Shown here: one piece after another, positions 41,001 to 58,563 of the stretch | Position numbering within the stretch: position 1 is the first letter of the stretch | Layout of the letters: each line of letters begins with the position of its first letter | Assembly (NCBI GenBank): GCA_001818315.1 | Contig: MHKF01000006.1 | Coordinates: 17,148-81,147 of the forward strand | Source: Candidatus Kerfeldbacteria bacterium RIFCSPLOWO2_02_FULL_42_19 | GTDB lineage: Bacteria > Patescibacteriota > Patescibacteriia > HO2-48-17 | DNA: 64,000 bases | Reading direction: 5' to 3' | Position numbers and translations under genes: made by a program | The notes under the pieces: model-generated | Told to the model about the DNA's origin: nothing | What the model saw: only the letters and a program-made list of their open reading frames with translations | The model's database searches: none

Positions 41001-44000
41001 GATGGATGTGTAGTTTTGAATAACGTCACACAAAGTACACAAAATTATCGGGCTGATGATCCACGCACGCCGTTCGATGAATCAAAGTCTATCACGAGAA
41101 CCGAAGGCTACGACCCCGCGATTGCGAGTTGCGAACTCAATAGCATCGATGAAAGTAACACATGCCGCTGGAAACCAAACGCAGGAGTCGGAAATCAGGT
41201 GATTAAGGTGCGTCCAGATCGCGATTGCAAAGAATGGCTCGCCTGTTCGAGCGCCTACGCCGTAGAAAATCCGGACACTCGAGCGAAAGATTACTACTGC
41301 TTCGATGTTGGTCGCTGTCGTAATCTCTCAGAGGACGGTGTGTGCAATGACTGGGTTTACAAACCCGACCGCTACGAACTGACTGAAGAAAATATGACCG
41401 AAGTCAATTCGGCGCCGGGAGACACCGAAGAGCTTGAAAAAATACAGAATCTTACTGGGTACGTAAAAGCAGGTCTCAAAGCAGTCGTACCAAATCCACA
41501 AGGTGGGAGTTCACCAGCTCGTATCAAAGGATATTATACTTTCGACGCGATGCCGCAGGTAGGAATCTCTGGTAGGAATTCTTCACGTGACATTGTGTAC
41601 AGTGGAAGATTCGAAAACACATTCTGCGCTCAAGGGAGTATCGGCGCGTCTTGCACACTCGATCAACACTGTCGTAGAGTCGATCCGGCAACAGGGCAAC
41701 TTACAGATACAGAACCTGGAGCTTGCGTCAATCCACCCCGCGGTTGGTCAAAAACTGGCGGAGAAGGCAACAGCATTCAGGTGATTGATTTTGATGAGAC
41801 GATCGCACTGCCGTATGAAACCGCCCCAGAAACGATTCAAGTAGATTTACCTAATGTCTTGAAGGTCGTACCAAGTGGGGAACAAAGTAACGGTGCACAG
41901 TTGATGTTGCAGGATGATCTCATTCAACCCAATGGAGAGTATGTTCTTTCTTTTGACGGGCGCTATTTTACCGCGCCGACAGATGACGACACGTTGCGCA
42001 TTGGATTTTCCTATAACACAACCTGCAATGAAACAAGTTGCACGCGGGATAAAGTAGACATGTTCTCCGACGTGTGTCGTGGCGGAGTTCGTGACGGCCT
42101 TTTCTGCGACATCAACGCAGGTCAAAAACGATGCGCGGGTGGAGATAATAACGGCGATGAATGTAGCGCCGAAATAGATTGTCCAAACGGAACCTGCACC
42201 GCAAAAGTATGCATCAATGCAGGAGGAAACACGGGCCAGTCCTGTCTGGATGTGGACATTTGCCGTGTAGGACTCCCAATAGAGGAAGTAGGATTAGCGC
42301 GCTGCGGTGTGCCCTCCAACTGTCCTGATGGCGAATGTGTCCAAGATGCATTCAAAATGACTGGACAGATGCAACGCTATACTCTTGGCCCCGTCATGGT
42401 AAGTAATAAACCAACGGTGAAAGAACTTCGGTGTTCGAATGACATCAATAGTAGTTGCGTCAACGATGATGACTGTTCGGAAGATGGCATTTGTATCGAG
42501 CTTTCCACAACATTACTCTTCTTTGAACAAAGAGCAGCGAGTGCAAACACACCTTTCTTAATAGATAATGTTTCCTTGAAACCAGTACTGGAAGTGAGTA
42601 AAATTGTTGGTCTCGTTTCGCGCAACTGCCGAAGTTATCCGCGAGAAAATGCTCTCGGTTGCGATTACTTAGACATTAACCGTATTACCTATCGCGGATG
42701 GTATGGTTATTGTCTGGAATATGACCCATTGAATAAAAATCAGTGTTTGGTCTGGTGGCCAGTAGATGTAATCGGTGGAGAATCATCGCTCGCACCGCGT
42801 GTTCGAGCGGGTTACAGCGAACGCACACCTCTGTACATGTGTGTGGCCTCCAGCGGAACGCGTATTCGGGACACAAAGTATTGTGTGAATCATGACAATC
42901 CTGAATATGCCGGCAAAGTCTGTGAGTTGGATAATCAGTGCGGCGGGGGTCGATGTATTACTATGCAGGATACTGGCGAATACTCTCTCTTCCCAAAAGA
43001 TTATACATTCAAAGCAGCATATGATAATAATGGAAAACTTTTTTGCGGTAATACACACTCGCAGGTTTTTGCGTGTACAAGCAGTGTATTAACAGAACAA
43101 CAAGCGATTTTGGAAGATATTGTAGATCGAAAAGTCTGTGTCACACAAACCGAATGTACAACGGACTCTGAATGCGCTGTACAGGTACCGGAAACAGGAC
43201 ACATAACCTATACAAAATGCCTCGATGGCTTTTGTGTTGATACGCGGACATGCGAAAATGATGGTGATTGTCCGAATTCGAGTACCTGCGAACCCTGGTA
43301 TGATGATACGGTACCTGAAGATGAAATTATCATCCCCGGATATTGCGCCGGAAATATGTTTCGGCCGTGTAATATTCGTAATGAAATGAGCGGCGATGCC
43401 ACTAATTCGGATTGTTTTCTATCGGTCGGTGAATTCGGTGAAGAATGTATTCCAGATTTTGATATACCAGAGACCAGAGTGGAAGGAAAAGTGCGAGTAG
43501 CCATTCCTGAATGCGATGAAGATAACCTTCCGGGCGACGACGTGACTATAGTTGATTGGGGTCCATGTATTCCGTCGATTTGTGACTATATGGGTGGCGT
43601 ATGTGCTTCAGAACCAGAGAGTAGTGCAGGACTCCCAACGTATGGTGCTGTGTGTTTTAACGATCCAAGTTTGAGTTGCGGCGACGGTGTCAATTGTCCT
43701 GCAGACGCAGGAAGCTGTGTGTTCTCAACAACCACACGTTGGCAATGTGTTGGTGGAGCGAACGAGGGACTACCATGTACGCAGCACGGTGACTGTGACA
43801 GTAACCTCTGCTCAATGTGGCTACCACGTTTCGATGGCGTAACTGGCAGACTCTATAATTTCGCTGCTCAACTCGAACAGATCCCAGGCTATGCTGATAT
43901 TCAACACGTTATATTTGACACATTTGTTGCTGGTCAGGTTCAACCGAAAGATACTATTATTATTCCTGTAGGATACGTCACAGACCCTGGTTGTAATCAA

Positions 44001-45779
44001 GATAATACCGAATGTGGATATGGCGGTTCAGGTCCTGGTCTTGGAGGCGATAACTATGATATACGCGCGGTCAAGGCAAATGGCGGTATGGTATCTTATG
44101 GATTGAACCCCACTGATAATCCTTTTAACGATATTCCAACAGGTATCCTCTATCAACCGAAAGAAGGTGAAAGCATTGATCAACTTCCACAAGGAGGCGC
44201 CTATGGGAGTGCGAATCCACAGAGAGATCCCCCGGATTTCCTCGTGTGGTCGCAGTCTACTCAGGGTTCAAATAGATGGAGATCTAACGGCCGAGTTGTA
44301 GGTCTCTGGCTTGATAGCGAAAACGGAAAAATAAAAAATGCTTGGGCACTCATCTGGAATGACGGATCTATCAATGAAATTCGCTTCAAATTTGTTCTGC
44401 GTGAATCGTGTCAGTATTTCGCGAAAGTTGTGGATTTCGATGGAAAAAATGTAGCATGGGTGCAACGCTCGAAACGTGGGAGTGCGTATCATGTACCTGA
44501 AGTACTCTTTAATTTTTATCATGATTTCAATCCTTTCGGTGGAATGACTCCGGCCACTGGCGATGATCCACAAACGTGGGATAGTCGAATTCTGACAGAA
44601 ACAAGTCCTGGCGAAGTAGGGAAACAGCCCCCATTTGTAGAGCTTCCGGATGATTATCGTGATCCAGAGCAAGGCATTGATGATGCAGTAGGTGATCCTC
44701 CAGTTTGGCAATTCCGCGCCGGAAGGCCGTATGCGTGTGTAGGGAATTGCGGTGTAGGAAAGTGTGATAATTGGGTCACAGATATATCTTGTACAACGGA
44801 TGCGCGATGTTATCTTGAAGGATCTCACGGACGATGCATTGGGGCCATTGGTATTTGTGTGAATGCCCAGAATCAAGCGGCAGAAAAACCAACATATTGT
44901 AATAACGATCAGAATTGTCGAGACGCAAATCTGCTCTTCCCGATTTGTAAAACGGACTTCCGAAAAAATGGTTATTATTACATCAATAGTAGGGATCGTT
45001 CCGCACAAGAACTGGCGGTTGCAAAAAATGCTGTAGTTGACAGACTGCGATATGTATTTGCGGATATTTTGGAAGTGCTGCGGTATACACAACCCGGAAC
45101 TGGTGTTGATAATTTAGGAGGTTTCGTCACTCTCCCTCCGGAGACACTTTTTACACAAGCTGATGGGTTCACATATTATAAACTGATGCCTATCTGTTCA
45201 GCACCGCGCGGTAATACTGATTACTGTGGCTTGAGACCCGAAGTGAGTCAGATCAAAATGAATGAACTGCCAGAACAGGACAACATGGAAATCGATCTGG
45301 GAAGGGGTGGAGAGGTATCATTAAGTTTTGCTGCTCGTGTTGATTTGGAACAGTATCCATTGAAACATATTGTCATTGACTGGGATGATGGAGCCGATCC
45401 ATTTGTGGATATTTGGGAAGCAGCGCCACTCACGAAACACACATATATTCATGCATATAAGTGTAAAGGACCAGAGGATCCAAATTATAACGCCTATACC
45501 GGCGGCAATCCCGATAGTCGTTGTCATTTTAATCCTAAAATTCGTATCGTCGATAACTGGGATTGGTGTAGTGGAAACGAAATTGCGAATATCGGGCCGG
45601 GGGCAGACATCGCAACAGATCTCACGAATTGCAGTGATCTCGCGCAAGATTGTCGTAATCTTCAGAACGCTGTGGATGACGGAAGTGGCAATAACGGTGA
45701 TAACGGCGAGTGGACCTGTAACACCTGGGATGTGATTGGATCACCTGGCACCCTTGGATTGATTCACGTGAATCCGTAA
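35028..45779 (+). CDS. Giant (3583 aa) secreted cysteine-rich multi-domain surface protein with repeated CBM4_9/galactose-binding-like beta-sandwich modules
   Basis: It is an uninterrupted 10.75-kb ORF. The N-terminal signal-peptide-like segment is KKMLFMSVFTLGVLLQSFMIARPVFAQG. Hundreds of Cys residues occur in recurring motifs (CRAYGYC, CRAQYVGCEEYT, NGCREYKGS, EGCREYSDRQG, MCREYQYGE, LGCEAYTD, GCEKFIST). At least four modules begin with N..FE and carry CBM4_9-type strands, starting near aa 760, 1360 (ENFENTTFEGAG...GNAYIVSFWARSG), 1790 (ILNSSFETD...YTLRGYVRK) and 2290. No LPXTG or other recognised anchor motif is at the C-terminus. Confidence 0.7.
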   Translation: MQVNDARKNKKYTRAHLGWKKMLFMSVFTLGVLLQSFMIARPVFAQGFIGDPFFDPHGFTPAEEINYTAVEPPGGGLPVAVTVDTPGFFRRIMDKIATIAKTIYEKAGRAAVKGMIRVVLTKVAYETAVWIASGDNKQKPLLFTSQWDEYLEDAGDAALGEAFQTLAMKNGYLRFNVCDPFDNRVNLAIQLGLDFATGRPQKPQCTFKEMRERWSEVRDDPAAQKKFLSNFKVSWDIEQNDIGQFLSLQTTFLATQAQKEKSAQLQRQASDPFKDVTGKISQFIETPAQVVAGVQKDAFEKSSNEFLVLVGDPAADALGVFTSTLMSKLLARIKGGVYSFGDLVREDYRNEQGGFVDATAFAPAGGGSGLFNPSGASAPGVAAAEAHYASIADISFSSGDEFQVLADLVACPSEGAQAINCTIDEKFRIAINDRLTVREALDQKLLDGKKPFGFGTQGQPIPNVRDGYSYRSVIVLQRYLIVPVGWKIAAEYIRDFNPGNFTLTDLVSAYDKCGPDNYSPFCGLVDPDWVLKAPANYCRKQGFGNPVAKGEYVDQDGNPATPRKPFIVRQEICVDDQSCIQENPDGTCRAYGYCTEQKRIWRFVGERCEPAYNTCRTLTDTATGQRASLLLNTVNFNDCSRDVAGCQWLCQVFNPLDNDWQCAGNGVVYPTCDAAHDPDGDGNCDGTTGGATCATNPCAIESGRFRCQNTDDEICYLNPESDNPREFNDASISLDRDAPNCDSKNAGCEKFISTRNGTNLINNPSFEYFADNPLDPQPLTFSSEGAGDVLNDNDADVFGFCDGRGGDTHACDDDSDCAGECVGWQSFGAPIVLGVSDPVARGQVAVKFVGTNDAEADTLMYEYESNTELANRSFDLSFRYRKTGGGGACTVKLKYNTDQDSDIATKTLAVNESWTEEKWSTDQLITLPNTRQCYGGNDGSPCTRNSECGGGVCRSDTSLEIRIGVEPAGCELLIDEVKLEEIKPLNFESATATAAYSEYASINTIHLNGQRLSCEPKDLGCEAYTDVKDKSVIPAVITNPVSELCTQGVNKDYSKASCNQCDQGQVGCDFYEEVPLKNQPPDPLAPERTGFYCSNYPNSEARSCTPAYCDNNPSILCDPTADINTLRVVCGHSNPTCVNSAPAQCGDPSATCLPQVSIIPKTGKKCRAQYVGCEEYTNLDIVGQGGEGLEYYNRIKQCVKPVDGDPTQGTYYTWVGSETAGYQLKAFKLKKSNITDHSFCPGNQQICDVNDMINETGTAPCTQLDVGDTANPNADCQDTIQGDPATCIEADLETNPDCGQFYDSGGNIFYRLRSRVISVSEECNPLRSTIDNNVYYAIRSQSKVCPAQMNGCREYKGSAGNNVRILLQENFENTTFEGAGLSNEGAIAGFGDQSMEIRMENNTDPNEGFTDIPQTLLTKGNAYIVSFWARSGTSSETNTLTVSAIFRKKDGSGVLEFGETTLEPTNDWNLYRLGPLVFDREVTDQEVFAIRLNPQDASYPKSLQIDNLKITDSTSQYLIKGSAAICPKFEGCREYSDRQGRTNYLKSFTRLCEQRFLGCEIALDTQNSNLPFAQSFNLNNPEKDPQGKDDVIVPADQATLVVNNPNNFCFATAEGCSALGSPNENKQENKIDGFSTTYRIKDPDNYGTTLCQDHQIMCREYQYGETQYYFKDPGNKACEYRIVGQDFSPSAPSNDIYGWAKFGKDEGCPLFNPYDFPSRPSGSVCAAGDRVGQPCQRDSECPVSFCTSDIADDPTTPNTDESRGWVGACPESADSCTLYLDTYGTNPRDEEILNSSFETDVRNNATGEYTPDNIPDDWHLTACSDGTCTIARETGQIRSGEASLKIEGGVGNPTFTIASEPMRVDSNDIYTLRGYVRKNFNGIFDLGLAFFDRDGNLISENPFIAAKQEALTDLSEKWVAFQGTIGPTQKGPELALVEFPQDTLEVKILIGGTTGSGGIFVDDVSFDHNDEYYYLENSVDTKSCRGNANRDDGCVVLNNVTQSTQNYRADDPRTPFDESKSITRTEGYDPAIASCELNSIDESNTCRWKPNAGVGNQVIKVRPDRDCKEWLACSSAYAVENPDTRAKDYYCFDVGRCRNLSEDGVCNDWVYKPDRYELTEENMTEVNSAPGDTEELEKIQNLTGYVKAGLKAVVPNPQGGSSPARIKGYYTFDAMPQVGISGRNSSRDIVYSGRFENTFCAQGSIGASCTLDQHCRRVDPATGQLTDTEPGACVNPPRGWSKTGGEGNSIQVIDFDETIALPYETAPETIQVDLPNVLKVVPSGEQSNGAQLMLQDDLIQPNGEYVLSFDGRYFTAPTDDDTLRIGFSYNTTCNETSCTRDKVDMFSDVCRGGVRDGLFCDINAGQKRCAGGDNNGDECSAEIDCPNGTCTAKVCINAGGNTGQSCLDVDICRVGLPIEEVGLARCGVPSNCPDGECVQDAFKMTGQMQRYTLGPVMVSNKPTVKELRCSNDINSSCVNDDDCSEDGICIELSTTLLFFEQRAASANTPFLIDNVSLKPVLEVSKIVGLVSRNCRSYPRENALGCDYLDINRITYRGWYGYCLEYDPLNKNQCLVWWPVDVIGGESSLAPRVRAGYSERTPLYMCVASSGTRIRDTKYCVNHDNPEYAGKVCELDNQCGGGRCITMQDTGEYSLFPKDYTFKAAYDNNGKLFCGNTHSQVFACTSSVLTEQQAILEDIVDRKVCVTQTECTTDSECAVQVPETGHITYTKCLDGFCVDTRTCENDGDCPNSSTCEPWYDDTVPEDEIIIPGYCAGNMFRPCNIRNEMSGDATNSDCFLSVGEFGEECIPDFDIPETRVEGKVRVAIPECDEDNLPGDDVTIVDWGPCIPSICDYMGGVCASEPESSAGLPTYGAVCFNDPSLSCGDGVNCPADAGSCVFSTTTRWQCVGGANEGLPCTQHGDCDSNLCSMWLPRFDGVTGRLYNFAAQLEQIPGYADIQHVIFDTFVAGQVQPKDTIIIPVGYVTDPGCNQDNTECGYGGSGPGLGGDNYDIRAVKANGGMVSYGLNPTDNPFNDIPTGILYQPKEGESIDQLPQGGAYGSANPQRDPPDFLVWSQSTQGSNRWRSNGRVVGLWLDSENGKIKNAWALIWNDGSINEIRFKFVLRESCQYFAKVVDFDGKNVAWVQRSKRGSAYHVPEVLFNFYHDFNPFGGMTPATGDDPQTWDSRILTETSPGEVGKQPPFVELPDDYRDPEQGIDDAVGDPPVWQFRAGRPYACVGNCGVGKCDNWVTDISCTTDARCYLEGSHGRCIGAIGICVNAQNQAAEKPTYCNNDQNCRDANLLFPICKTDFRKNGYYYINSRDRSAQELAVAKNAVVDRLRYVFADILEVLRYTQPGTGVDNLGGFVTLPPETLFTQADGFTYYKLMPICSAPRGNTDYCGLRPEVSQIKMNELPEQDNMEIDLGRGGEVSLSFAARVDLEQYPLKHIVIDWDDGADPFVDIWEAAPLTKHTYIHAYKCKGPEDPNYNAYTGGNPDSRCHFNPKIRIVDNWDWCSGNEIANIGPGADIATDLTNCSDLAQDCRNLQNAVDDGSGNNGDNGEWTCNTWDVIGSPGTLGLIHVNP

Positions 45780-51334: not shown

Positions 51335-51784
51335 ATGCAATTTGTGGTTCCGCAGTTTATTGAAGTCGAAAACAAAATTATCGGTCCGATTTCAACAAGA
51401 CAATTCATTCTCCTGGTAATTCTGGGAGTTATTGAATTTTTACTCTTTCGACTTGCGCCGGTATGGATGTTTATTATCGGTGGCGTCATTACGCTTGTAA
51501 TGTTTATCACCCTTGCTTTTGTGAAAGTGAACAGTCAGCCTTTTCATTTATTTCTCCTGGCAATTATCCAAACACTCAAAAAACCATCACAAAGAGTGTG
51601 GACCAAAGCAGGACACTATCAAGAAAAGAAAAAGAGCAAAGAGAAAGAGTCGCTTCCAAAAAGTATTCCAATCAAGCCACATTTTACACGCTCAAGACTT
51701 GCAGAACTTTCGCTGGTGGTCGATACCGGCGGCGCATATCGTGATACAGAAGTGTTCAATCTCAATCCATTCAAACATCAATAA
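51335..51784 (+). CDS. Small two-TM membrane protein, VirB3/PrgI/TcpE-like by position and topology
   Basis: The 149-aa protein begins MQFVVPQFIEVENKIIGPISTRQFILLVILGVIEFLL, with a second TM at WMFIIGGVITLVMFITLAFV. It lies immediately upstream of the VirB4 pieces, as in MPF-FA type systems. Confidence 0.4.
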   Translation: MQFVVPQFIEVENKIIGPISTRQFILLVILGVIEFLLFRLAPVWMFIIGGVITLVMFITLAFVKVNSQPFHLFLLAIIQTLKKPSQRVWTKAGHYQEKKKSKEKESLPKSIPIKPHFTRSRLAELSLVVDTGGAYRDTEVFNLNPFKHQ

Positions 51785-51789
51785 AAAAC

Positions 51790-52473
51790 ATGCATTCACA
51801 AAAGTTGGCACAAGGTCGCATCACAAAATCGGTGCAAAAATATATCGACATTTATGAAATTAAGGATGATGTCGTGGTATTGAAAGATGGTTCCATGCGA
51901 GGCGTACTGCTTGTTTCGAGTATCAATTTTGCTTTGAAATCAGAAGAAGAACAAAGCGCCATTATCCAATCTTACGTCCAATTCCTCAACTCCCTTAATT
52001 TTCCTTTGCAGATCGTTATACAATCCCGCAGGCTTAATATCGAAGCCTATCTCGAACGCCTCAAAAACATCGAAAGAGAACAAACAAACGAACTCCTGCG
52101 AATCCAAACAGCCGATTACCGAAAATTCGTCGGAGAACTCGTAGAAATTGCCGATATCATGAGTAAACATTTTTACGTAGCTATACCGTATTCCCCGTAT
52201 CATAAAGGAGAAAAAAAAGGTTTTTTTTCAAGATTCGGTGAAGTGTTTTCGCCAGCGACCGTAATTACGCTCCAGAGACAAAAATTTGAAAAATACAAAC
52301 AAGAGCTCGAAAGAAGAGTATCACTCGTAAGCGATGGATTGGCTTCTATGGGACTGACATCCGTCATGTTGGATACGCAAAGTCTTATTGAGTTGTATTA
52401 CAATACCTATAATCCCACTATGTACGAGCATCAGCGTTTAACGGATCTCAACGCGATCCAAGTAGTTGAATAA
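51790..52473 (+). CDS. VirB4/TrbE/CagE N-terminal domain as a separate 227-aa ORF (split VirB4)
   Basis: IDIYEIKDDVVVLKDGSMRGVLLVSSINFALKSEEEQSAIIQSYVQFLNSLNFPLQIVIQSRRL matches the CagE_TrbE_VirB N-terminal domain pattern. It stops with TAA 2 nt before the ATG of the ATPase ORF, in a different frame. Confidence 0.55.
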   Translation: MHSQKLAQGRITKSVQKYIDIYEIKDDVVVLKDGSMRGVLLVSSINFALKSEEEQSAIIQSYVQFLNSLNFPLQIVIQSRRLNIEAYLERLKNIEREQTNELLRIQTADYRKFVGELVEIADIMSKHFYVAIPYSPYHKGEKKGFFSRFGEVFSPATVITLQRQKFEKYKQELERRVSLVSDGLASMGLTSVMLDTQSLIELYYNTYNPTMYEHQRLTDLNAIQVVE

Positions 52474-52475
52474 AT

Positions 52476-54311
52476 ATGCCACAAGAGATTGTAAAAACAG
52501 TACAAACCACAATCGATAAAAAACAGGAAAAGCAAATTCTCGAAGCCGAACGCGTATTCCGGCGAGGAGAAATATCCGTGCGCGATCTCATTGCACCAGC
52601 AGCAATGAAAGTGAGTCCACGTGCTCTGGATATCGGTGGGAAACTCGCAAGCACACTCTTTGTGATCACGTATCCCCGATACATCGGCGTCGGCTGGTTT
52701 ACGCCCATCGTGATCTTGAATCTTCCTATCGACATCGCGATGTTTTTTTACCCTGTTGCTTCCGATATCGTACTCAAGCAGCTGCGCAATAAAGCAGGTG
52801 CCATCGAAGCTCAACTCCTTTCGGATGCAGAAAAAGGAGCGCCTCGTGATCCCATTCGCGAAACAGCGTTAAAGGACATCGAACAACTCCGCGATAATCT
52901 TGTGCAAGGTACCGAGCGATTTTTTCAATTTGCGCTCTATGTGACCGTATACGCTGATAACGAAAAGCAACTCGAAGAACGTGTTGAAAAAATAGAAAAT
53001 ATCTTCGGATCACGACTCGTGTATGTGAAGCGGGTGCTCTATCAAGCAGAACAAGGATTCAATTCAACAATGCCACTCGGCAATGACGAAATTGCCGTAT
53101 ATTTCAACATGAATTCTTCGCCATGCGCATCGTCATTTCCTTTTACTTCAGCTGAACTCACGAGCGATGAAGGGGTGCTCTTTGGAATCAATCGGCACAA
53201 CAATAGCCTCGTGCTTTTTGATCGTTTTTCACTGCAGAATGGCAATGCAGTCGTTTTTGCAACAGCAGGTGCTGGAAAAAGTTATGCGGTGAAACTTGAA
53301 GTTTTGCGAAGTTTGATGTATGGCACCGACATTATTATCATCGACCCAGAACGCGAATATAAATACCTCTCTGATTCTGTTGGCGGGACATTCATCAACA
53401 TTTCGTTGAATTCAGAAGCGAAAATTAATCCTTTCGATCTCCCGCGTCCAGTGGGCGGTGCCGATAGACCAGCGGACATTATTCGATCCTCCGTCATTAC
53501 ATTGAAAGGTTTGATTCGGATCATGGTAGGTAATTTGACGCCAGAAGAAGATTCGCTCGTTGATCGCGCACTCATTGAAACCTACGCGAAAAAAGATATT
53601 ACTGTTGAAAGCGACTTACATTCCATTGACGTACCGACAATGTTGGATTTCCAAGAAATACTTTCGGGTATGGAAGGGGGCGAAGGTTTGCTTTTGAAAA
53701 TAAAAAAGTACACTGAGGGAACGTTTGCCGGACTTTTTTCGAGTCAGACGAATATCGACATGAAAAATCAACTCGTTGTGTTTAGCGTGCGCGATCTTGA
53801 AGATGAGCTTCGGCCGATTGCGATCTATACGATTATGACCTATATTTGGAGTGTCGTACGTTCGCAACTCAAAAAACGAATTCTTGTGATCGATGAAGCG
53901 TGGTGGCTTATGCAGCACGAAGATTCCGCGAAATTTATTTACGCGTTGGTGAAACGATGTCGGAAATATTATCTGGGCGTCACGACGATTACACAGGATG
54001 TGAATGATTTTTTGCGTTCACCTTACGGTCAAGCGATTGTGACGAATTCAGCATTGCAACTCCTCTTAAAACAATCACCGGCATCAATTGATATTGTCGC
54101 AAAAACATTTTTGCTGACACAGGGTGAAAGGTATTTGTTGCTTGAAAGTGGGGTCGGTGAAGGTATTTTTTTCGCAGGCAGCAAACATGCGGCTATTAAA
54201 GTTGTTGCGTCGTATGCAGAAGATCAGATCATTACCTCAGACCCACGGCAGTTGCTCGAAATCGAAAAAGCGAAAAAAGAATTCGAAGAATCTATAGGAA
54301 ATAAACAGTAA
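52476..54311 (+). CDS. VirB4/TrbE-family T4SS ATPase (C-terminal ATPase portion)
   Basis: Walker A is VVFATAGAGKSYAV. Walker B is RILVIDEAWWLM. The downstream TTITQDVNDF motif region and the typical post-Walker A IIIDPEREY are present. Confidence 0.8.
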   Translation: MPQEIVKTVQTTIDKKQEKQILEAERVFRRGEISVRDLIAPAAMKVSPRALDIGGKLASTLFVITYPRYIGVGWFTPIVILNLPIDIAMFFYPVASDIVLKQLRNKAGAIEAQLLSDAEKGAPRDPIRETALKDIEQLRDNLVQGTERFFQFALYVTVYADNEKQLEERVEKIENIFGSRLVYVKRVLYQAEQGFNSTMPLGNDEIAVYFNMNSSPCASSFPFTSAELTSDEGVLFGINRHNNSLVLFDRFSLQNGNAVVFATAGAGKSYAVKLEVLRSLMYGTDIIIIDPEREYKYLSDSVGGTFINISLNSEAKINPFDLPRPVGGADRPADIIRSSVITLKGLIRIMVGNLTPEEDSLVDRALIETYAKKDITVESDLHSIDVPTMLDFQEILSGMEGGEGLLLKIKKYTEGTFAGLFSSQTNIDMKNQLVVFSVRDLEDELRPIAIYTIMTYIWSVVRSQLKKRILVIDEAWWLMQHEDSAKFIYALVKRCRKYYLGVTTITQDVNDFLRSPYGQAIVTNSALQLLLKQSPASIDIVAKTFLLTQGERYLLLESGVGEGIFFAGSKHAAIKVVASYAEDQIITSDPRQLLEIEKAKKEFEESIGNKQ

Positions 54312-54322
54312 TGAATTAAGGT

Positions 54323-54928
54323 ATGAATAAAAAATTTTTCATAATACTCATCGTTTTCGTGACTCTTCTGATTATCGGCGGAGGTATTCTCGTCTGGTTC
54401 TTATTGAAGTATCAAGAACTAAACTATGTAACGAATCAGCCGCAGAATGTAAATTCGAGGGCAGTAAATATTCCGGTAACAACAACAAATACGCAAACAG
54501 CGAATGCAAATGTAATTGAGCAAAATACGAATCAAGAGAAGAGTAACCTTGAGCAAAACACAGAAGACGAAATTACGGCGCTCAGTAGAAGTTTTATAGA
54601 ACGTTTCGGCACGTTCTCGAATCAGAATGAATACGAAAATATTAACAACCTTCGTATTTACATGACCAAGAAAATGCAAGCATATGCAGATACGCTTATC
54701 AAGAATGCAAAGGCAACAGATGAAAGCAGTCCTTATTATGGAATTACAACAAAAGTCGTAAGCGTTGAAATCAACGAACTTGCTCCCCCACAAGCGCAGG
54801 TAAAAATTACAACCCAGCGTAAGGAAACGAAAGAAAATAGCGAAACGAAAGTATTTTATCAAGATGTTGAGATGGGTGTTGTGCAGGAGAGAGAAGTTTG
54901 GAAGATTGATAGTGTCACATGGAAGTAA
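54323..54928 (+). CDS. Bitopic membrane protein with a C-terminal NTF2-like domain (VirB8/TcpC-like candidate)
   Basis: It has an N-terminal TM helix (FFIILIVFVTLLIIGGGILVWFLL) and an N/T/Q-rich linker. The C-terminal ~110 aa ends ...VFYQDVEMGVVQEREVWKIDSVTWK, a pattern typical of NTF2-like/VirB8 folds. Confidence 0.4.
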   Translation: MNKKFFIILIVFVTLLIIGGGILVWFLLKYQELNYVTNQPQNVNSRAVNIPVTTTNTQTANANVIEQNTNQEKSNLEQNTEDEITALSRSFIERFGTFSNQNEYENINNLRIYMTKKMQAYADTLIKNAKATDESSPYYGITTKVVSVEINELAPPQAQVKITTQRKETKENSETKVFYQDVEMGVVQEREVWKIDSVTWK

Positions 54929-54945
54929 GAGTATAGATAATTATT

Positions 54946-55680
54946 ATGTCAGCAGAAGCAGCTGAAAATCTTCAAAGTATGCCTGTGTTGCCAGCAGCTT
55001 ATCAGGCGCAGGCAGCGAGGCAACTTTCGCGGGAAAAACAAGGTAGACGTCTTTCCGCTGTACCAGCGCCATTAGGTTTGGATTATGGGGGGGCTGGAAT
55101 GCCTTCTGCGGAAAGTGATGCTGCGGAAGCGTCGAACGAAGCAAGTTCCGCAACATCGGCAGAAGGTGCACTAGATCAAAAACCAGTTATCCAAGGAGCG
55201 CAACTACAGCAGGCACTGAGGCGTTCATTGGGACAACGAACAAAACTTGCGCGCGAGGGTTCGGAAGGCGCAGAAGAAGAAAGTAAAAAAGGGGCGGTTT
55301 CAGATGCCACGGCTACCGGTGTGCGACTTTTGACTGATAACGCATTGACATGGTGCTTCCGATACTGCGCAACGTTTGAACCTTTTGGAATTGTTTTGGT
55401 TGTACTGCCGTATCTGAATTTTCATTTTTGCCAAGCGCACTTGCGTGGATCCCAATGGTTTCGAAAATTCAAGTTGTGGGAAATCGTTGTGTTTATACTT
55501 CTAGATCTTCTCGTTATTGGTATTATCGCAAGCATTTTTATGCTCGTGATACTCGTCGTTGAGTCAGCACAAAAAAAAGCAGAAATCACGTGGCGTCTTA
55601 TTATGGGTTTAGTCACCGGCGGTATATCAGGTCTTAGTGGGGCAGCAGGATCTATTCTCGGAGAAGAATTGACTCAATAA
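54946..55680 (+). CDS. Hypothetical membrane protein (acidic/Ser/Ala-rich N-terminus with a C-terminal multi-TM region)
   Basis: The C-terminal hydrophobic helices are FGIVLVVLPYLNFHF, WEIVVFILLDLLVIGIIASIFMLVILVV and LIMGLVTGGISGLSGAAGSIL. No family was recognised. Confidence 0.4.
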   Translation: MSAEAAENLQSMPVLPAAYQAQAARQLSREKQGRRLSAVPAPLGLDYGGAGMPSAESDAAEASNEASSATSAEGALDQKPVIQGAQLQQALRRSLGQRTKLAREGSEGAEEESKKGAVSDATATGVRLLTDNALTWCFRYCATFEPFGIVLVVLPYLNFHFCQAHLRGSQWFRKFKLWEIVVFILLDLLVIGIIASIFMLVILVVESAQKKAEITWRLIMGLVTGGISGLSGAAGSILGEELTQ

Positions 55681-55688
55681 TTAAATTT

Positions 55689-56930
55689 ATGCTCGGCGTT
55701 AAAATAGAAATATTCAAAAAAATCGGATTCGTTTTTATCTTCTTGTTGGTTGCAATAGGTATGGGGTTTGTTATTTATCGTATCTTTTTTGGCCCACTTG
55801 TTCGTGAACCTGCAACGAATGTGAATATTTCGCTTCCTCCCGGAACACTACCGCCGACAAACGTCAATATTAACGCAGGAGTGATTATTCGTAATATTAA
55901 CGGAGTGCAAGAAGTCGTACTCCCTGCAATCGATACGGTCGCACGTGGAGGAAATACACTTGCTGAAGATGTACCTGCTGAGGCCGTGAGTAATGCGGAA
56001 GTAACCGAACGCGGAATCGTATATTATAACGAATTCGAAGGAAAATTTTACACACTAGATAAAGATGGCAAACCGCAAACGCTCACAGACGATGTGTATC
56101 GATCGGCAGAAGAAATCACGTGGAGCCCTGAAGGTTCTAAAGCAATTTTAGAATTTCCGGATGGCAGCAATATTCTGTATGATTTTGATAGTAAAAAACA
56201 AACAACACTCCCAAAGGAGTTAAGCGATTTTTCTTTTGCTCCAAGCGGCGGCGAGATTGCATTTAAATTTCTCACCGATCGCAAAGAGCACCGATGGCTT
56301 GGTGTATCTTCTCCCGACGGTTCGCAAGCGCGCGGCATTGAACAACTTGGAGAAAATGCAGAGAAGGTGACAGTTGATTGGTCACCGTCTGGACAGGTGA
56401 TTGCGACGTTTCGGGAAAGCGTCAATGCGGAGGATAACGAAATTACGTTCGTGGGTCTTAATGACGAGAATTTTAAGGGCCTTGTTGTGCAAGGAAGAGG
56501 ATTTCAATCGCAATGGTCACCTGCAGGAGATAGATTATTATACAGTGTCTATAATGCCCAAGGGAATTATCAGCCAGAGTTGTGGATTACCGATGCGCAA
56601 GGAGAGAATATCGGTCGAAACAATGTTCCACTGAAGATCAATACCTGGGCGGACAAATGTACTTTTTCGGTAAATACCGCAATCTATTGCGCAGTGCCAC
56701 AGACGTTACCGTACGGAGCAGGGATTGTGCCGGACCTTGCTGCGAGCACGCCAGATATTTTTTATAAAATTGATCTTGCAACCGGTACAAAAACTGTTAT
56801 CGCATACCCCGTGGATAGTAGCGGAAATTCACGATTCTCTGCCGAGAAGCTCTATGTAGGCAACGATGGCAAAAACCTCTTTTTTACGGATAAGCAAACT
56901 AGAAAACTCCAGAAAATTAGATTAGAATGA
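55689..56930 (+). CDS. TolB-like beta-propeller protein (PD40/WD40-like repeats) with an N-terminal TM anchor
   Basis: It has an N-terminal TM helix. Repeated W-S-P-x-G blades are present (ITWSPEGSKAILEFPDGSNILYDFD, FAPSGGEIAFKF, VDWSPSGQVIATF, SQWSPAGDRLLYSV), as in TolB C-terminal propellers. Confidence 0.5.
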   Translation: MLGVKIEIFKKIGFVFIFLLVAIGMGFVIYRIFFGPLVREPATNVNISLPPGTLPPTNVNINAGVIIRNINGVQEVVLPAIDTVARGGNTLAEDVPAEAVSNAEVTERGIVYYNEFEGKFYTLDKDGKPQTLTDDVYRSAEEITWSPEGSKAILEFPDGSNILYDFDSKKQTTLPKELSDFSFAPSGGEIAFKFLTDRKEHRWLGVSSPDGSQARGIEQLGENAEKVTVDWSPSGQVIATFRESVNAEDNEITFVGLNDENFKGLVVQGRGFQSQWSPAGDRLLYSVYNAQGNYQPELWITDAQGENIGRNNVPLKINTWADKCTFSVNTAIYCAVPQTLPYGAGIVPDLAASTPDIFYKIDLATGTKTVIAYPVDSSGNSRFSAEKLYVGNDGKNLFFTDKQTRKLQKIRLE

Positions 56931-57665
56931 GTGTATATGAAAAATATTGGCCGTGAAACATTTTTTATCACTCTCAGCATCCTTGCCCTGATTTTTATTG
57001 TCGTGCTCTACGCCTTTGGACAATACCTCATGCAACAACCTGTCAAAACGCAAGCACAACAAACTTCTGATTTACAATATGATCCTTTAATTACGCTTGT
57101 ACCTGAGCAGTATCAAGTGCCGCCAGAAGGTAAATTTGAAATTTCAAATAATGATCCACAGCGTGGGGCCGAAGACGCGCCTGTGACGCTCGTGATTTTT
57201 TCGGATTTCCAGTGCCCGTACTGTTTGGACGCAGAAAATATTATCGCGCAGCTCGAGAAAGATTTTCCAGAAAAAATCCACATCGTCTGGAAAGACTTAC
57301 CGAATCCACGGCTGCATGCGGAAGCAAAGCCCGCAGCAGAAGCAGCGCGCTGCGCACAAAAGCAGGGAAAATTCTGGGAATTTCATGATGCCCTTTTCAA
57401 AAATACAGACAACCTCGCTACCGAACTCTACACAAAAATTGCAACAGACCTTCAGTTAAACTCCGAAGATTTTACAACGTGCGTCGAGTCGCATATGACA
57501 GAATCTCTCATACAAAAAAATTACATCGAAGGAAAATGGCTCGGTATCACCGCAACACCGTATTTTTTTATTAACGACGTGACGGTTTCCGGTGCGCGAG
57601 ACTATGAGTATTTTAAAGATGTCATAACGCAAGAACTCCAAAAGAAAGAGTCGACAATAGAATAA
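56931..57665 (+). CDS. DsbA-like thiol:disulfide oxidoreductase (thioredoxin fold, CPYC active site), membrane-anchored
   Basis: It has an N-terminal TM helix. APVTLVIFSDFQCPYCLDAENII is followed by ...KFWEFHDALF, which is typical of the DsbA family. The start abuts the previous stop with a 0-bp gap. Confidence 0.7.
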   Translation: MYMKNIGRETFFITLSILALIFIVVLYAFGQYLMQQPVKTQAQQTSDLQYDPLITLVPEQYQVPPEGKFEISNNDPQRGAEDAPVTLVIFSDFQCPYCLDAENIIAQLEKDFPEKIHIVWKDLPNPRLHAEAKPAAEAARCAQKQGKFWEFHDALFKNTDNLATELYTKIATDLQLNSEDFTTCVESHMTESLIQKNYIEGKWLGITATPYFFINDVTVSGARDYEYFKDVITQELQKKESTIE

Positions 57666-57669
57666 GTCT

Positions 57670-58563
57670 ATGCAACAACAGAGCAAAAAAAATATATGGA
57701 TTCAAAGATACTTAGGAAGGAGAGGCTATATTCCATTAGTTTTGGGCATACTTTTTGGAATGCTTTTTGCACTGCAGAACTTTGCACTCATTCCTGTTTT
57801 AGCACAAGGTCCGGATCAGCCCGCGAATACTGGTGCGCCAGATGCCGAAGCAGGGCCACTTCTCATTTCACTCGAAATTCCTATTGGTGGAAAAGCGACC
57901 GTAGGGAAACTCGATGAATATATTTCGGAACTCTATACATTTGCTCTCTCATTTATTGGTATTGTCGCGACGATCATGATTATGTGGGGCGGATTTAAGT
58001 GGGTAACAGCAGCAGGAAATTCAGGGAGAATTTCGGATGCTAAGGATACGATTTATAATGCAATTATTGGACTTGTGTTGGCGCTCCTTTCGTGGACTAT
58101 GTTGAATGTGATTAATCCCGCGTTAACATCAAATACGTTTCCAGAAGTGAGACCGATTAAACCAGCATATTCGAAGCTCGCGGACTATGTCGGAGCAAGT
58201 TGTGTGGCAGCTAATGCCGTTGACTCCATGAATATTTGTGAACATTTCAGTCTAGAGGCAACCCAAAACAAAAGTACAGATAGTTTAGTATGTAGTTTTG
58301 ACAGAAAAACTGGTGCTCAGGCATTCGATCATTGCACGATGAAACTATGTGCTGATACACTGGCGAATTGTGCTGGTACATACCCCGGTAACACTTATAA
58401 TTACAGGAAATGCCTTTGTTTATTGTATCAAAAAGATGAAAGTGACTGTAAAAAAGATAGTGAAACTTGCAAATTTCGGTGTAGTTGGCTGGAAGAACCG
58501 ATAACAAATTTAGAGCAAAGAGCAAATCCATGTTGGCCGGATGGGCTTACGCCAGTGATTTAG
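57670..58563 (+). CDS. VirB2/TrbC-like pilin-fold protein with a ~120-aa cysteine-rich C-terminal extension
   Basis: A signal-peptide-like TM (YIPLVLGILFGMLFALQNFALIPVLAQG) is followed by two hydrophobic helices (LYTFALSFIGIVATIMIMWGGFKWV and IYNAIIGLVLALLSWTMLNVI) separated by a short polar loop (TAAGNSGRISDAKDT), which is the VirB2/TrbC topology. The tail carries about 12 Cys (SCVAAN...ICEH...VCSF...HCTMKLCADTLANCAG...KCLCLLY...DCKKDSETCKFRCSW...PCW). Confidence 0.5.
   Translation: MQQQSKKNIWIQRYLGRRGYIPLVLGILFGMLFALQNFALIPVLAQGPDQPANTGAPDAEAGPLLISLEIPIGGKATVGKLDEYISELYTFALSFIGIVATIMIMWGGFKWVTAAGNSGRISDAKDTIYNAIIGLVLALLSWTMLNVINPALTSNTFPEVRPIKPAYSKLADYVGASCVAANAVDSMNICEHFSLEATQNKSTDSLVCSFDRKTGAQAFDHCTMKLCADTLANCAGTYPGNTYNYRKCLCLLYQKDESDCKKDSETCKFRCSWLEEPITNLEQRANPCWPDGLTPVI

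What the first reader, a model, noticed from the sequence alone, without database searches (positions are those of the whole stretch)
56931..58563. DsbA-like oxidoreductase immediately upstream of a pilin-fold protein with a 12-Cys C-terminal extension
VirB2/TrbC pilins are normally about 100 aa with two helices and no cysteine-rich domain. Here the two-helix pilin-like core (LYTFALSFIGIVATIMIMWGGFKWV / IYNAIIGLVLALLSWTMLNVI) is followed by a ~120-aa tail with about 12 cysteines. The preceding gene, with a 4-bp gap, is a membrane-anchored CPYC thioredoxin-fold protein. The pairing suggests a dedicated disulfide-formation step for the pilin tail and for the 3583-aa Cys-rich protein. It also suggests a pilus subunit that bears a disulfide-knotted distal domain, possibly an adhesive tip.
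Basis: partly seen in the sequence, partly recalled or inferred. Interest (0 to 1): 0.65.

Follow-up and report, generated by a model that had tools for sequence, protein, structure and literature searches.

The report
Disulfide enzyme beside cysteine-rich secretion pilin
In an ultra-small (Patescibacteria/CPR) bacterium, a type IV secretion gene cluster ends with a membrane-anchored disulfide-forming enzyme followed by a pilin-like protein carrying a unique 12-cysteine outer domain. This is a local version of a widespread but apparently undescribed arrangement, not a one-off oddity.

Summary
ORF 56931-57665 is an N-terminally anchored DsbA-type protein with a CPYC active site. Four bases later, ORF 57670-58563 encodes a signal peptide, a Pfam T4SS_pilin domain and a 148-aa tail holding all 12 cysteines. 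The sequence is Candidatus Kerfeldbacteria, and both genes close a chromosomal type IV secretion cluster.

The tail is an orphan domain. Among 1.84 billion representative proteins, only one close relative shares it. That relative keeps all 12 cysteines and nearly the same spacing at 48% tail identity. The fold could not be predicted.

The gene pairing is not special to this genome. The order propeller, DsbA-like, pilin-domain protein, RadA recurs across distant Patescibacteria. Half of 125 pilin-domain proteins carry tails of at least 60 aa. Of the 44 tails with four or more cysteines, 42 have an even number.

Most likely, the DsbA-like enzyme oxidises surface-exposed, fast-evolving ectodomains anchored by the pilin domain. 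Exclusive dedication to this tail is not shown: some lineages keep the gene with a decayed active site or next to cysteine-free pilins. The "adhesive pilus tip" and "knottin" readings remain untested.

The parts
56931..57665 (+). DsbA-like thiol:disulfide oxidoreductase gene (probable start ATG 56937; 242 aa)
   Evidence: Pfam Thioredoxin_4 E 2.1e-26 and DSBA E 8e-17. The closest solved relatives are C. diphtheriae TsdA (4PWO/7UNN, E 5e-17) and B. subtilis BdbD (3EU3, E 7e-16).
56961..57017 (+). N-terminal membrane anchor of the DsbA-like protein (aa 9-27 of the 242-aa form)
   Evidence: Single hydrophobic segment, Kyte-Doolittle mean 2.82. A preceding K/R suggests an N-in orientation with the catalytic domain outside (inference).
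57213..57224 (+). CPYC active-site motif (aa 95-98 of the 244-aa ORF)
   Evidence: It aligns with the CPFC of TsdA. A canonical CxxC is present in 20 of 31 T4SS-linked homologs. The structural pair C141/C184 and cis-Pro P210 were invariant in the 19 sequences aligned and are present in all 31 shown.
57670..58563 (+). Pilin-domain protein with Cys-rich tail (297 aa)
   Evidence: It is identical to a hypothetical protein of Candidatus Kerfeldbacteria RIFCSPHIGHO2_02_FULL.
57670..57804 (+). Predicted long Sec signal peptide (aa 1-45; K/R-rich n-region, hydrophobic core aa 23-41, VLA|QG site)
   Evidence: Read from the sequence plus the hydropathy scan. P0002 has AFA|QQ at the same place. No signal-peptide predictor was available, so cleavage is an inference.
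57901..58113 (+). T4SS_pilin (PF18895) two-helix hairpin, aa 78-148
   Evidence: Pfam E 3.4e-12. AlphaFold helices H81-113 and H118-148 have pLDDT about 75. Hydrophobic segments lie at aa 91-109 and 130-148. Almost unchanged in P0002 (only 3 substitutions in the 71 residues aa 78-148).
58117..58560 (+). Orphan 12-Cys C-terminal ectodomain (aa 150-297). Spacing between successive Cys is 12, 18, 14, 5, 7, 14, 2, 10, 7, 4 and 17 residues.
   Evidence: Only P0002 matches among 1.84e9 representatives. All 12 Cys are invariant at 48% tail identity. No Pfam family. No similarity to 76 other pilin tails.
55689..56930 (+). Membrane-anchored beta-propeller-like protein, conserved upstream partner of the DsbA-like gene
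   Evidence: Weak TolB/propeller hits. Homologs sit next to the DsbA-like gene or pilin genes in most loci. Its two Cys (C324, C334) are invariant in 35 of 35 homologs.
51335..54311 (+). Core of the secretion cluster: VirB3/PrgI-like gene (51335-51784), TraC/TrsD-like N-domain (51790-52473) and VirB4-type ATPase (52476-54311)
   Evidence: Pfam P-loop_TraG E 3e-25. NCBIfam VirB4_plasma and TrsD hits. Orthologs in L002 carry PrgI and TraC-like Pfam marks at 58-76% identity.
35028..45779 (+). 3583-aa exported protein with 166 Cys, a second probable disulfide client in the same cluster
   Evidence: Cys count. N-terminal hydrophobic segment aa 22-40. CBM_4_9 is the only Pfam hit. No similarity to the pilin tail.

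Best explanation
These two genes are the 3' end of a chromosomal, monoderm-type (MPF-FATA-like) type IV secretion cluster of a Kerfeldbacteria (Patescibacteria) cell.

**The first gene product** is a DsbA/BdbD/TsdA-type oxidoreductase. It is tethered by one N-terminal helix, with its CPYC domain outside the membrane.

**The second gene product** is exported by a long Sec signal peptide. It inserts as a VirB2-like two-helix hairpin with a cytoplasmic loop, leaving the 148-aa tail outside.

**Proposed mechanism.** The DsbA-like enzyme oxidises the 12 tail cysteines into six disulfides. It probably also oxidises the invariant Cys pair of the neighbouring propeller protein and the 166-Cys giant protein. 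This gives a compact, stable, surface-exposed domain. The pilin domain anchors that domain at the secretion apparatus, or on a pilus if it polymerises. The tail is a rapidly evolving, lineage-specific contact domain for the host or partner cell. It occupies the slot that holds peptidoglycan hydrolase domains in other Patescibacteria.

**Shown:** domain identities, motifs, gene order and its conservation, Cys conservation and parity, and the fast divergence of the tail.

**Inferred:** topology, signal-peptide cleavage, disulfide formation by this enzyme, surface display and contact function.
For: **Domain and motif evidence**
- Pfam and PDB assignments for both proteins.
- CPYC is present, and the Thr-Pro loop is conserved.
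- There are three hydrophobic segments after a K/R-rich N-terminus. This puts the tail outside whether or not the signal peptide is cleaved.

**Cysteine evidence**
- All 12 Cys are conserved, with near-identical spacing, at 48% tail identity.
- Cys is nearly absent from the other cluster proteins (0-3 each). It is concentrated in the tail, the DsbA-like protein and the giant protein.
- 42 of 44 pilin tails with at least 4 Cys have an even count (binomial p 5.6e-11).

**Conservation of the arrangement**
- The order propeller, DsbA-like, pilin-domain gene(s), RadA, RecG is conserved at 44-77% DsbA identity. It appears in Kerfeldbacteria, Uhrbacteria, Buchananbacteria and unnamed Patescibacteria.
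- All 15 loci with a canonical CxxC and pilin data have pilins with at least 10 Cys.

**Rate of change**
- Against L001, the neighbours are 85%, 77% and 76% identical, the pilin protein is 59%, and its tail is 48%.
- At the same slot, other lineages carry SLT, Peptidase_M15/VanY, lysozyme or YkuD domains.
Against: - There is no direct evidence of disulfides, of oxidase activity or of a pilus.
- No DsbB/VKOR candidate lies in the 64-kb window, so the reoxidation route is unknown.
- The DsbA-like gene sits directly upstream of pilins with 0-2 Cys in L009, L010 and L020.
- It has lost the standard CxxC in 11 of 31 homologs. These include L017, L029 and L087, whose pilins are Cys-rich. Linkage therefore cannot rest on oxidising the adjacent pilin alone.
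- Otherwise similar loci lack the gene altogether (L011, L015, L016, L024, L026, L032).
- The link between CxxC integrity and Cys richness (Fisher p 0.0012) rests on only 2-4 independent losses.
- A profile of the pilin domain finds no solved VirB2/TraA pilin.
- The tail fold is unknown (pLDDT 37-57).
Confidence: 0.55

Rival explanations
1. First reader's stronger version. The protein is a polymerising pilus subunit, or a tip subunit, whose disulfide-knotted distal domain is an adhesin. The DsbA exists specifically to fold it.
For: - Pfam T4SS_pilin match, signal peptide and hairpin.
- In solved F- and T-pili, the pilin termini face the pilus exterior (established knowledge, not tested here). 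A C-terminal domain could therefore be displayed.
- The tail evolves fast.
Against: - It is the only pilin-domain gene in the window. Related clusters (L005, L006, L021) contain only long-tailed pilin-domain genes and no short major pilin. A "minor tip pilin" role therefore has no major partner in the clusters examined.
- There is no detectable link to any experimentally proven pilin (TrbC E 0.38).
- The fold is unknown, with no knottin or EGF signature.
- Dedication of the DsbA is contradicted by L009, L010, L020, L017 and L029.
Confidence: 0.2
2. The pilin-like hairpin is only a membrane anchor or docking module that holds an ectodomain at the secretion apparatus. It does not form a filament. 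The DsbA is the cell's general (housekeeping) extracytoplasmic oxidase, and it merely happens to reside in this conserved gene neighbourhood.
For: - The same hairpin carries enzymes (SLT, M15/VanY, lysozyme, YkuD) and proteins of up to more than 2000 aa. Such loads are hard to reconcile with tight helical packing of every subunit.
- Monoderm T4SSs are not known to make VirB2 pili (PMC12102498).
- DsbA homologs of this family are widespread general oxidases.
- The neighbourhood also contains the housekeeping genes RadA, RecG and KsgA.
- Loci without the DsbA-like gene still have Cys-rich pilins (L026, L033).
Against: - The DsbA-like gene always sits inside the secretion cluster, between the propeller and pilin genes. 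This holds in lineages as far apart as 44% identity.
- Exported cluster proteins are the Cys-rich proteins of the region.
- Short pilin arrays in other Patescibacteria (L035, L039, L046, L050) suggest the family can act as a genuine filament subunit.
Confidence: 0.3
3. The DsbA-like protein is mainly a non-catalytic assembly factor or chaperone of the secretion system, like F-plasmid TraF. Its CPYC in this genome is incidental.
For: - 11 of 31 cluster-linked homologs have a shifted, monothiol or missing active site. They still keep the structural Cys pair, the cis-Pro and the gene position.
- F-like T4SSs encode TraF, which has a thioredoxin fold without CXXC and acts in pilus extension, alongside redox-active TrbB (PMC11315126).
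Against: - In this window and in 19 other homologs the CxxC is intact, and CPYC is the commonest form.
- Every canonical-CxxC locus with pilin data has Cys-rich pilins.
- No Pfam TraF hit was found. The best relatives are active oxidases, TsdA and BdbD.
Confidence: 0.15
4. The 12 cysteines bind metals (Zn or Fe-S) rather than forming disulfides.
For: High Cys density. There are two His residues next to Cys, in CEH and DHC.
Against: - The predicted location is extracytoplasmic.
- The tail has no CxxC pairs. It has only one CxC, one Cx3C and one Cx4C.
- Even Cys counts hold across the family.
- An adjacent oxidase has an intact active site.
Confidence: 0.05

Closest known systems
Patescibacteria chromosomal T4SS with VirB2-like pilins (Quinonero-Coronel et al. 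2025, PMC12102498)
   Same: - The same cluster type: VirB3/PrgI, TrsD/TraC-like protein, VirB4 and a PF18895 pilin.
- It is chromosomal and lies next to KsgA.
- No relaxase or coupling protein was recognised among the cluster genes scanned against Pfam or NCBIfam; the window was not searched for them specifically.
   Different: - A text search of that paper finds no mention of thioredoxin, DsbA or disulfide. The searches that covered fusions and hydrolases showed no pilin-hydrolase fusion either.
- It states that most genomes with VirB2 lack VirB1. Here many homologs carry hydrolase domains fused to the pilin domain.
F-like T4SS thioredoxin-fold proteins TrbB (CXXC, disulfide isomerase) and TraF (no CXXC) with Cys-rich clients TraN, TraU and TraH (PMC11315126)
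   Same: - A secretion-system locus encodes its own thioredoxin-fold protein alongside unusually Cys-rich exported components.
- Family members exist both with and without the active-site CxxC.
   Different: - That system is diderm and periplasmic, and its proteins are soluble and DsbC-like. Here the protein is a membrane-anchored DsbA/BdbD-type protein in a monoderm-type system.
- There was no Pfam TraF or TrbB match.
- In F, the pilin itself (TraA) is not the Cys-rich client.
Gram-positive membrane-anchored oxidoreductases: B. subtilis BdbD (3EU3), C. diphtheriae TsdA (4PWO/7UNN) and MdbA
   Same: - These are the closest solved sequences (E 5e-17 to 7e-16).
- They share the N-terminal anchor, the CPxC motif and the Thr-cisPro loop.
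- MdbA is described as catalysing oxidative folding of exported proteins (abstract of PMC9974433).
   Different: - Those enzymes are general oxidases that work with a known partner (BdbC or VKOR). They are not encoded inside a T4SS cluster.
- The partner here is unknown.
- Their clients are sortase pilins or type IV-like pseudopilins, not VirB2-like proteins.
Classical VirB2/TrbC/TraA conjugative pilins
   Same: - Long signal peptide and two hydrophobic helices joined by a short basic loop.
- The gene lies in a VirB3/VirB4 cluster.
- TrbC is the next-ranked pilin family in Pfam (E 0.38; 0.15 for P0003).
   Different: - The classical pilins are about 70-120 aa when mature and have no extra domain. 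This protein has a 148-aa Cys-rich tail.
- The matches are sub-threshold only, and a family profile finds no solved pilin.
- Polymerisation has not been shown.
Mycoplasma ICE Mbov_0395 family pilin-like conjugal transfer protein (NCBIfam NF045849)
   Same: The pilin domain hits this model at E 8.7e-7, in line with the monoderm ancestry of the cluster.
   Different: The score (28.5 bits) is below the curated cutoff of 40. The model is 80 residues long and covers only the pilin domain (aa 83-148).

Membership tests
DsbA-like thiol:disulfide oxidoreductase (Pfam Thioredoxin_4 / DSBA; BdbD/TsdA type) | Thioredoxin fold with inserted helical domain, detected by profile over the full domain length | tested here: met
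   PF13462 E 2.1e-26 covering profile positions 4-163 of 165. PF01323 E 8e-17 covering 1-190 of 191. PDB hits to TsdA and BdbD.
DsbA-like thiol:disulfide oxidoreductase (Pfam Thioredoxin_4 / DSBA; BdbD/TsdA type) | CxxC active site at the start of helix 1 | tested here: met
   CPYC at aa 95-98, aligned with the CPFC of TsdA.
DsbA-like thiol:disulfide oxidoreductase (Pfam Thioredoxin_4 / DSBA; BdbD/TsdA type) | cis-Pro loop (Thr/Val-Pro) opposite the active site | tested here: met
   T209-P210 aligns with the GTP of TsdA. P210 was invariant in the 19 cluster-linked homologs and is present in all 31 shown.
DsbA-like thiol:disulfide oxidoreductase (Pfam Thioredoxin_4 / DSBA; BdbD/TsdA type) | Extracytoplasmic location | tested here: met
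   A single N-terminal hydrophobic anchor at aa 9-27. This is a prediction from hydropathy, not an experiment.
DsbA-like thiol:disulfide oxidoreductase (Pfam Thioredoxin_4 / DSBA; BdbD/TsdA type) | Reoxidising partner (DsbB, BdbC or VKOR) in the genome | tested here: inconclusive
   No polytopic CxxC protein lies on a genuine ORF in the 64-kb window. The rest of the genome was not available.
DsbA-like thiol:disulfide oxidoreductase (Pfam Thioredoxin_4 / DSBA; BdbD/TsdA type) | Oxidase activity and oxidising redox potential | not testable with these tools
   This needs biochemistry or complementation of an E. coli dsbA mutant.
T4SS_pilin (PF18895), VirB2-like | Profile match above the curated threshold | tested here: met
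   E 3.4e-12, 46.7 bits against a cutoff of 26.6, covering profile positions 2-71 of 71.
T4SS_pilin (PF18895), VirB2-like | Signal peptide followed by a two-helix hydrophobic hairpin | tested here: met
   Hydrophobic segments at aa 23-41, 91-109 and 130-148. AlphaFold helices 81-113 and 118-148 at pLDDT about 75.
T4SS_pilin (PF18895), VirB2-like | Encoded with VirB4 and VirB3 in one cluster | tested here: met
   Same-strand cluster spanning 51335-58563. Synteny is conserved in L002, L005 and L006.
Classical VirB2/TrbC/TraA conjugative pilin | Detectable homology to experimentally characterised pilins | tested here: inconclusive
   TrbC PF04956 reaches only E 0.38. A 44-sequence profile finds no VirB2/TraA chain in the PDB at E <= 10.
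Classical VirB2/TrbC/TraA conjugative pilin | Small mature protein consisting of the hairpin only | tested here: not met
   A 148-aa C-terminal domain follows the hairpin.
Classical VirB2/TrbC/TraA conjugative pilin | Polymerises into an extracellular filament | not testable with these tools
   This needs microscopy or biochemistry.
Knottin / EGF-like disulfide-rich domains | Family profile match or characteristic Cys spacing | tested here: not met
   No Pfam family for the tail even at E <= 10. The spacing 12-18-14-5-7-14-2-10-7-4-17 is non-repetitive. Models are predominantly helical but unreliable.
F-plasmid TraF/TrbB thioredoxin-like T4SS proteins | Sequence membership in the TraF or TrbB families | tested here: not met
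   Neither family is among the Pfam hits at E <= 0.1. The resemblance is functional and contextual only.

The most novel reading that the evidence does not exclude
In Patescibacteria the VirB2-like pilin domain may be a general display scaffold. Each lineage would plug a different disulfide-stabilised ectodomain onto its C-terminus: orphan contact domains like this 12-Cys tail, cell-wall hydrolases, or surface proteins of more than 2000 aa. The secretion cluster would carry its own DsbA-like folding factor to mature them. The pilus or secretion-system surface would then itself be the variable organ that recognises the host and breaches its wall. These cells are usually thought to lack quinones, so the oxidase would also need an unconventional reoxidation route.
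Probability: 0.25. Interest if true: 0.75.

Novelty: new variant of a known kind. Interest (0 to 1): 0.45.

Why it matters
Patescibacteria are a large share of uncultured bacterial diversity and depend on contact with host cells. Their T4SS genes are reported to be essential for epibiotic growth in the one strain tested (as cited in PMC12102498).

This analysis identifies which cluster products are surface-exposed, disulfide-rich and fast-evolving. These are the pilin-domain ectodomains. It also shows that the cluster often carries its own DsbA-like gene. Together these give concrete candidates for host-recognition determinants and a testable maturation step.

The work also suggests that the "missing VirB1" of these systems is often fused to the pilin domain. 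Finally, it raises the question of how an oxidase is recycled in organisms without an obvious DsbB/VKOR-quinone pathway.

Tried and rejected
**Structure prediction**
- AlphaFold2 on the full protein with 13 homologs gave mean pLDDT 57. Only the hairpin was usable.
- AlphaFold2 on the tail alone with its one homolog gave pLDDT 36.7, which is useless.
- Foldseek of the full model against the PDB gave nothing below E 2.7.

**Searches with the tail**
- Against 1.84e9 representatives, the tail found only P0002 and a spurious FN3-repeat match. That match (P0014, E 2.8e-4) comes from the local motif CAG-YPG-TY-YR repeated four times.
- The tail shows no similarity to the 3583-aa giant protein.
- It shows no similarity, and no shared Cys spacing, with 76 other pilin tails.
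- It has no Pfam family even at E <= 10.

**Other tests**
- A profile of the pilin domain against PDB sequences found no pilin, only chance membrane-helix matches at E > 1.
- The first attempt to scan metagenomes with the 19-sequence DsbA alignment failed because the alignment was too diverse.
- The repeat scan returned mostly non-Patescibacterial DsbA loci. Only 13 new cluster-type loci were useful, plus one duplicate of L005.
- The promoter and terminator scan was uninformative, with counts at shuffle level and no terminator between the two genes.
- The search for VKOR/DsbB in the window found none.
- I first took 4PWO to be MdbA. The literature shows it is TsdA.
- I considered the association between CxxC integrity and Cys-rich pilins to be strong support (Fisher p 0.0012). 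I downgraded it after a tree showed only 2-4 independent losses.
Full report
**1. What is in the sequence**

ORF 56931-57665 (+) has these features:
- It encodes 244 aa from GTG. An ATG at 56937 gives 242 aa and fits the 241-aa ortholog better.
- It has one N-terminal hydrophobic segment.
- It matches Thioredoxin_4 (E 2.1e-26) and DSBA (E 8e-17).
- CPYC lies at residues 95-98.

Four bases after its stop codon, ORF 57670-58563 (+) encodes 297 aa with these features:
- A K/R-rich N-terminus, a hydrophobic core and a VLA|QG site.
- A match to Pfam PF18895 T4SS_pilin at aa 78-148, E 3.4e-12, above the curated cutoff.
- A tail from aa 150 to 297 that contains all 12 cysteines.

With a background Cys frequency of 0.59% in 23 other window proteins, 12 Cys in 148 residues has P of about 1e-10. 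The exact protein is on record as a hypothetical protein of Candidatus Kerfeldbacteria RIFCSPHIGHO2_02_FULL.

**2. Surroundings**

Both genes close a long same-strand cluster, 33934-58563. In order, it contains:
- a 3583-aa exported protein with 166 Cys
- a 1292-aa polytopic protein with no Cys
- a 542-aa protein
- a VirB3/PrgI-like ORF at 51335-51784
- a TraC/TrsD-like N-domain at 51790-52473
- a VirB4-type ATPase at 52476-54311
- two small membrane proteins
- a membrane-anchored propeller-like protein at 55689-56930
- the DsbA-like gene
- the pilin-domain gene

KsgA lies upstream, and RadA and RecG lie downstream. This is the chromosomal, monoderm-related T4SS of Patescibacteria described in PMC12102498. 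A text search of that paper finds no mention of DsbA, thioredoxin or disulfide.

Apart from the tail, the DsbA-like protein and the giant protein, cluster proteins have 0-3 Cys. No second pilin-domain ORF exists in the 64-kb window.

**3. The tail**

A full HMMER scan of 1.84 billion representative proteins with the tail alone found only P0002, plus a chance FN3-repeat match.

P0002 comes from a 4.4-kb contig with the same gene order. Its neighbours are 85%, 77% and 76% identical to the window's. The pilin protein is only 59% identical, and its tail 48%. By contrast, the hairpin domain is almost unchanged, with 3 substitutions in the 71 residues aa 78-148.

All 12 Cys are invariant. The spacing is 12-18-14-5-7-14-2-10-7-4-17 in the window and 12-18-14-5-7-15-2-10-7-4-16 in P0002.

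The tail has no Pfam family. It has no similarity to the giant protein or to any of 76 other pilin tails. AlphaFold models are unreliable for it, with pLDDT about 50 in the full-length model and 36.7 alone. Fold search gave nothing. Its fold is therefore unknown, and nothing supports a knottin or EGF assignment.

**4. The pairing elsewhere**

DsbA homologs at 44-47% identity from distant Patescibacteria sit in the same place. The order is VirB3, TraC-like, VirB4 and further genes, then propeller (about 415 aa), DsbA-like (about 210 aa), pilin-domain protein, RadA and RecG.

- In a scan of GTDB species genomes with the pilin alignment, 14 of 59 loci carry the DsbA-like gene. That is 14 of the 31 loci showing the propeller-type module.
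- In 11 of those 14, the DsbA-like gene lies directly upstream of a pilin-domain gene.
- A metagenome scan added 13 further loci of this type.
- In a second Kerfeldbacteria lineage (L002/L008), the pilin has 356 aa and 28 Cys. There it sits before the propeller gene, and the DsbA-like gene follows.

The adjacency is therefore inherited synteny, not a feature of this genome.

**5. Pilin-domain tails are common, Cys-rich and variable**

- Of 125 complete pilin-domain ORFs, 63 have tails of at least 60 aa.
- Of those, 44 have at least 4 Cys, and 42 of the 44 have an even number (binomial p 5.6e-11). This is the classic signature of disulfide-bonded exported proteins.
- Tails include SLT, Peptidase_M15/VanY, phage-lysozyme and YkuD domains.
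- Some reach more than 2000 aa, for example L053 with 81 Cys.
- Short pilins of 100-150 aa occur as arrays in other lineages.

The window's protein occupies the slot that holds a hydrolase fusion in L005, L006 and L007. It carries an orphan Cys-rich domain there instead.

**6. The DsbA-like family is not uniformly catalytic**

Among 31 unique cluster-linked homologs, the structural Cys pair (C141/C184 in window numbering) and the cis-Pro (P210) are present in every sequence; they were invariant in the 19 formally scored. The active site varies:

| Active-site state | Number | Loci |
|---|---|---|
| Canonical CxxC | 20 | includes the window |
| Shifted SC[YF]GCPAS | 4 | L009, L010, L013, L023 |
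| CxxS or CxxG | 4 | L012, L020, L087, L092 |
| None | 3 | L014, L017, L029 |

All 15 canonical loci with pilin data have pilins with at least 10 Cys. The eight-member clade with decayed sites mostly has Cys-poor pilins. However, L017, L029 and L087 have decayed sites and Cys-rich pilins. A neighbour-joining tree shows only 2-4 independent losses, so the raw Fisher p of 0.0012 is confounded by phylogeny.

Retention of the gene without CxxC recalls F-plasmid TraF, which has a thioredoxin fold without CXXC. TraF exists beside redox-active TrbB, whose putative clients are the Cys-rich TraN, TraU and TraH (PMC11315126).

**7. Family assignments**

The DsbA-like protein's nearest solved relatives are C. 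diphtheriae TsdA (4PWO/7UNN) and B. subtilis BdbD (3EU3). Both are membrane-anchored oxidases of monoderms.

The pilin domain is a secure member of PF18895, but its link to proven pilins is weak:
- TrbC is sub-threshold only (E 0.38).
- A 44-sequence profile finds no solved VirB2/TraA chain.
- NCBIfam gives a below-cutoff hit to the Mycoplasma ICE pilin-like protein family (E 8.7e-7).

**8. Interpretation**

The best-supported reading has three parts.
- A membrane-anchored, probably active DsbA-type oxidase matures the extracytoplasmic Cys-rich proteins of the cluster. These include this tail (six disulfides), the propeller's invariant Cys pair (35 of 35 homologs) and the giant protein.
- The pilin domain anchors the tail at the secretion apparatus, or on a filament if one forms.
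- The tail is a lineage-specific, fast-evolving contact domain.

Topology is inferred. Three hydrophobic segments after a basic N-terminus put the tail outside whether or not the signal peptide is cleaved.

Not shown:
- oxidase activity
- actual disulfides
- polymerisation
- adhesion
- the reoxidation route: no VKOR/DsbB candidate lies in the window, and from my own knowledge these organisms generally lack quinone biosynthesis

**9. Verdict**

The finding is a lineage-specific member of a widespread arrangement that I could not find described in the literature available here. That arrangement is a T4SS cluster with its own DsbA-like gene and disulfide-rich pilin-domain ectodomains. I rate it a new variant of known kinds, namely T4SS-encoded thioredoxin-fold proteins and oxidoreductase-dependent pilus proteins. 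Interest is moderate.

Noticed in passing
P0007, P0008, P0010-P0013; L005:10634-11848; L006:10629-11873; L017:6821-7942; L068:1217-2179: The T4SS_pilin domain is fused to peptidoglycan-hydrolase domains (SLT, YkuD, phage lysozyme, Peptidase_M15/VanY) in many Patescibacteria. These are in effect VirB2-VirB1 fusions. The 2025 survey (PMC12102498) reports that most genomes with VirB2 lack VirB1.
   Followed up: partly
L009:5027-5830, L010:1-699, L013:4020-4751, L023:4550-5389; also L012, L014, L017, L020, L029, L087, L092: Cluster-linked DsbA-like proteins have a shifted (SC[YF]GCPAS), monothiol (CxxS) or absent active site. They keep the structural Cys pair and cis-Pro intact. This suggests a non-catalytic role in some lineages, reminiscent of F-plasmid TraF.
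   Followed up: partly
L053:2476-8850; L043:7589-12202; L044:6176-10723; L042:8332-12396; L049:6313-10092: Giant proteins of 1260 to more than 2125 aa, with up to 81 Cys, begin with a T4SS_pilin domain. The hairpin therefore also anchors very large Cys-rich surface proteins.
   Followed up: no
window 35028-45779: A 3583-aa protein with 166 Cys (an even number), an N-terminal hydrophobic segment and only a CBM_4_9 Pfam hit. It is probably a huge disulfide-rich surface protein of the same cluster. An ortholog of more than 2599 aa sits at the same position in L002.
   Followed up: partly
window 55689-56930: The propeller-like protein upstream of the DsbA-like gene is membrane-anchored. It has exactly two Cys (C324, C334), invariant in 35 of 35 homologs. 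This is a likely conserved disulfide and a second client encoded next to the oxidase.
   Followed up: partly
window 45792-49670: A 1292-aa protein with about 8-10 N-terminal hydrophobic segments, no Cys and no Pfam family. It is a candidate VirB6-like channel subunit, but this was not verified.
   Followed up: no
window 51790-52473 and 52476-54311: The VirB4 function is split into a 227-aa TraC/TrsD-like N-domain ORF and a 611-aa ATPase ORF. The same split appears in L002, L005 and L006.
   Followed up: partly
window 57901-58113: The pilin domain gives a below-cutoff hit (E 8.7e-7) to NCBIfam NF045849, the Mycoplasma ICE Mbov_0395 pilin-like conjugal transfer protein. This hints that pilin-like proteins are not foreign to monoderm MPF-FATA systems, contrary to a remark in PMC12102498.
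   Followed up: no
window 1-64000: No DsbB or VKOR-like polytopic CxxC protein was found on any genuine ORF. How this DsbA-type protein would be reoxidised is open.
   Followed up: partly
L011, L016, L017, L019-L021, L023, L027, L029, L031, L046, L052, L053, L062, L065: GTDB record titles call these MAGs "uncultured Gammaproteobacteria bacterium". They nevertheless carry the Patescibacteria-type pilin/propeller/RadA module. The submitter taxonomy labels are probably wrong.
   Followed up: no
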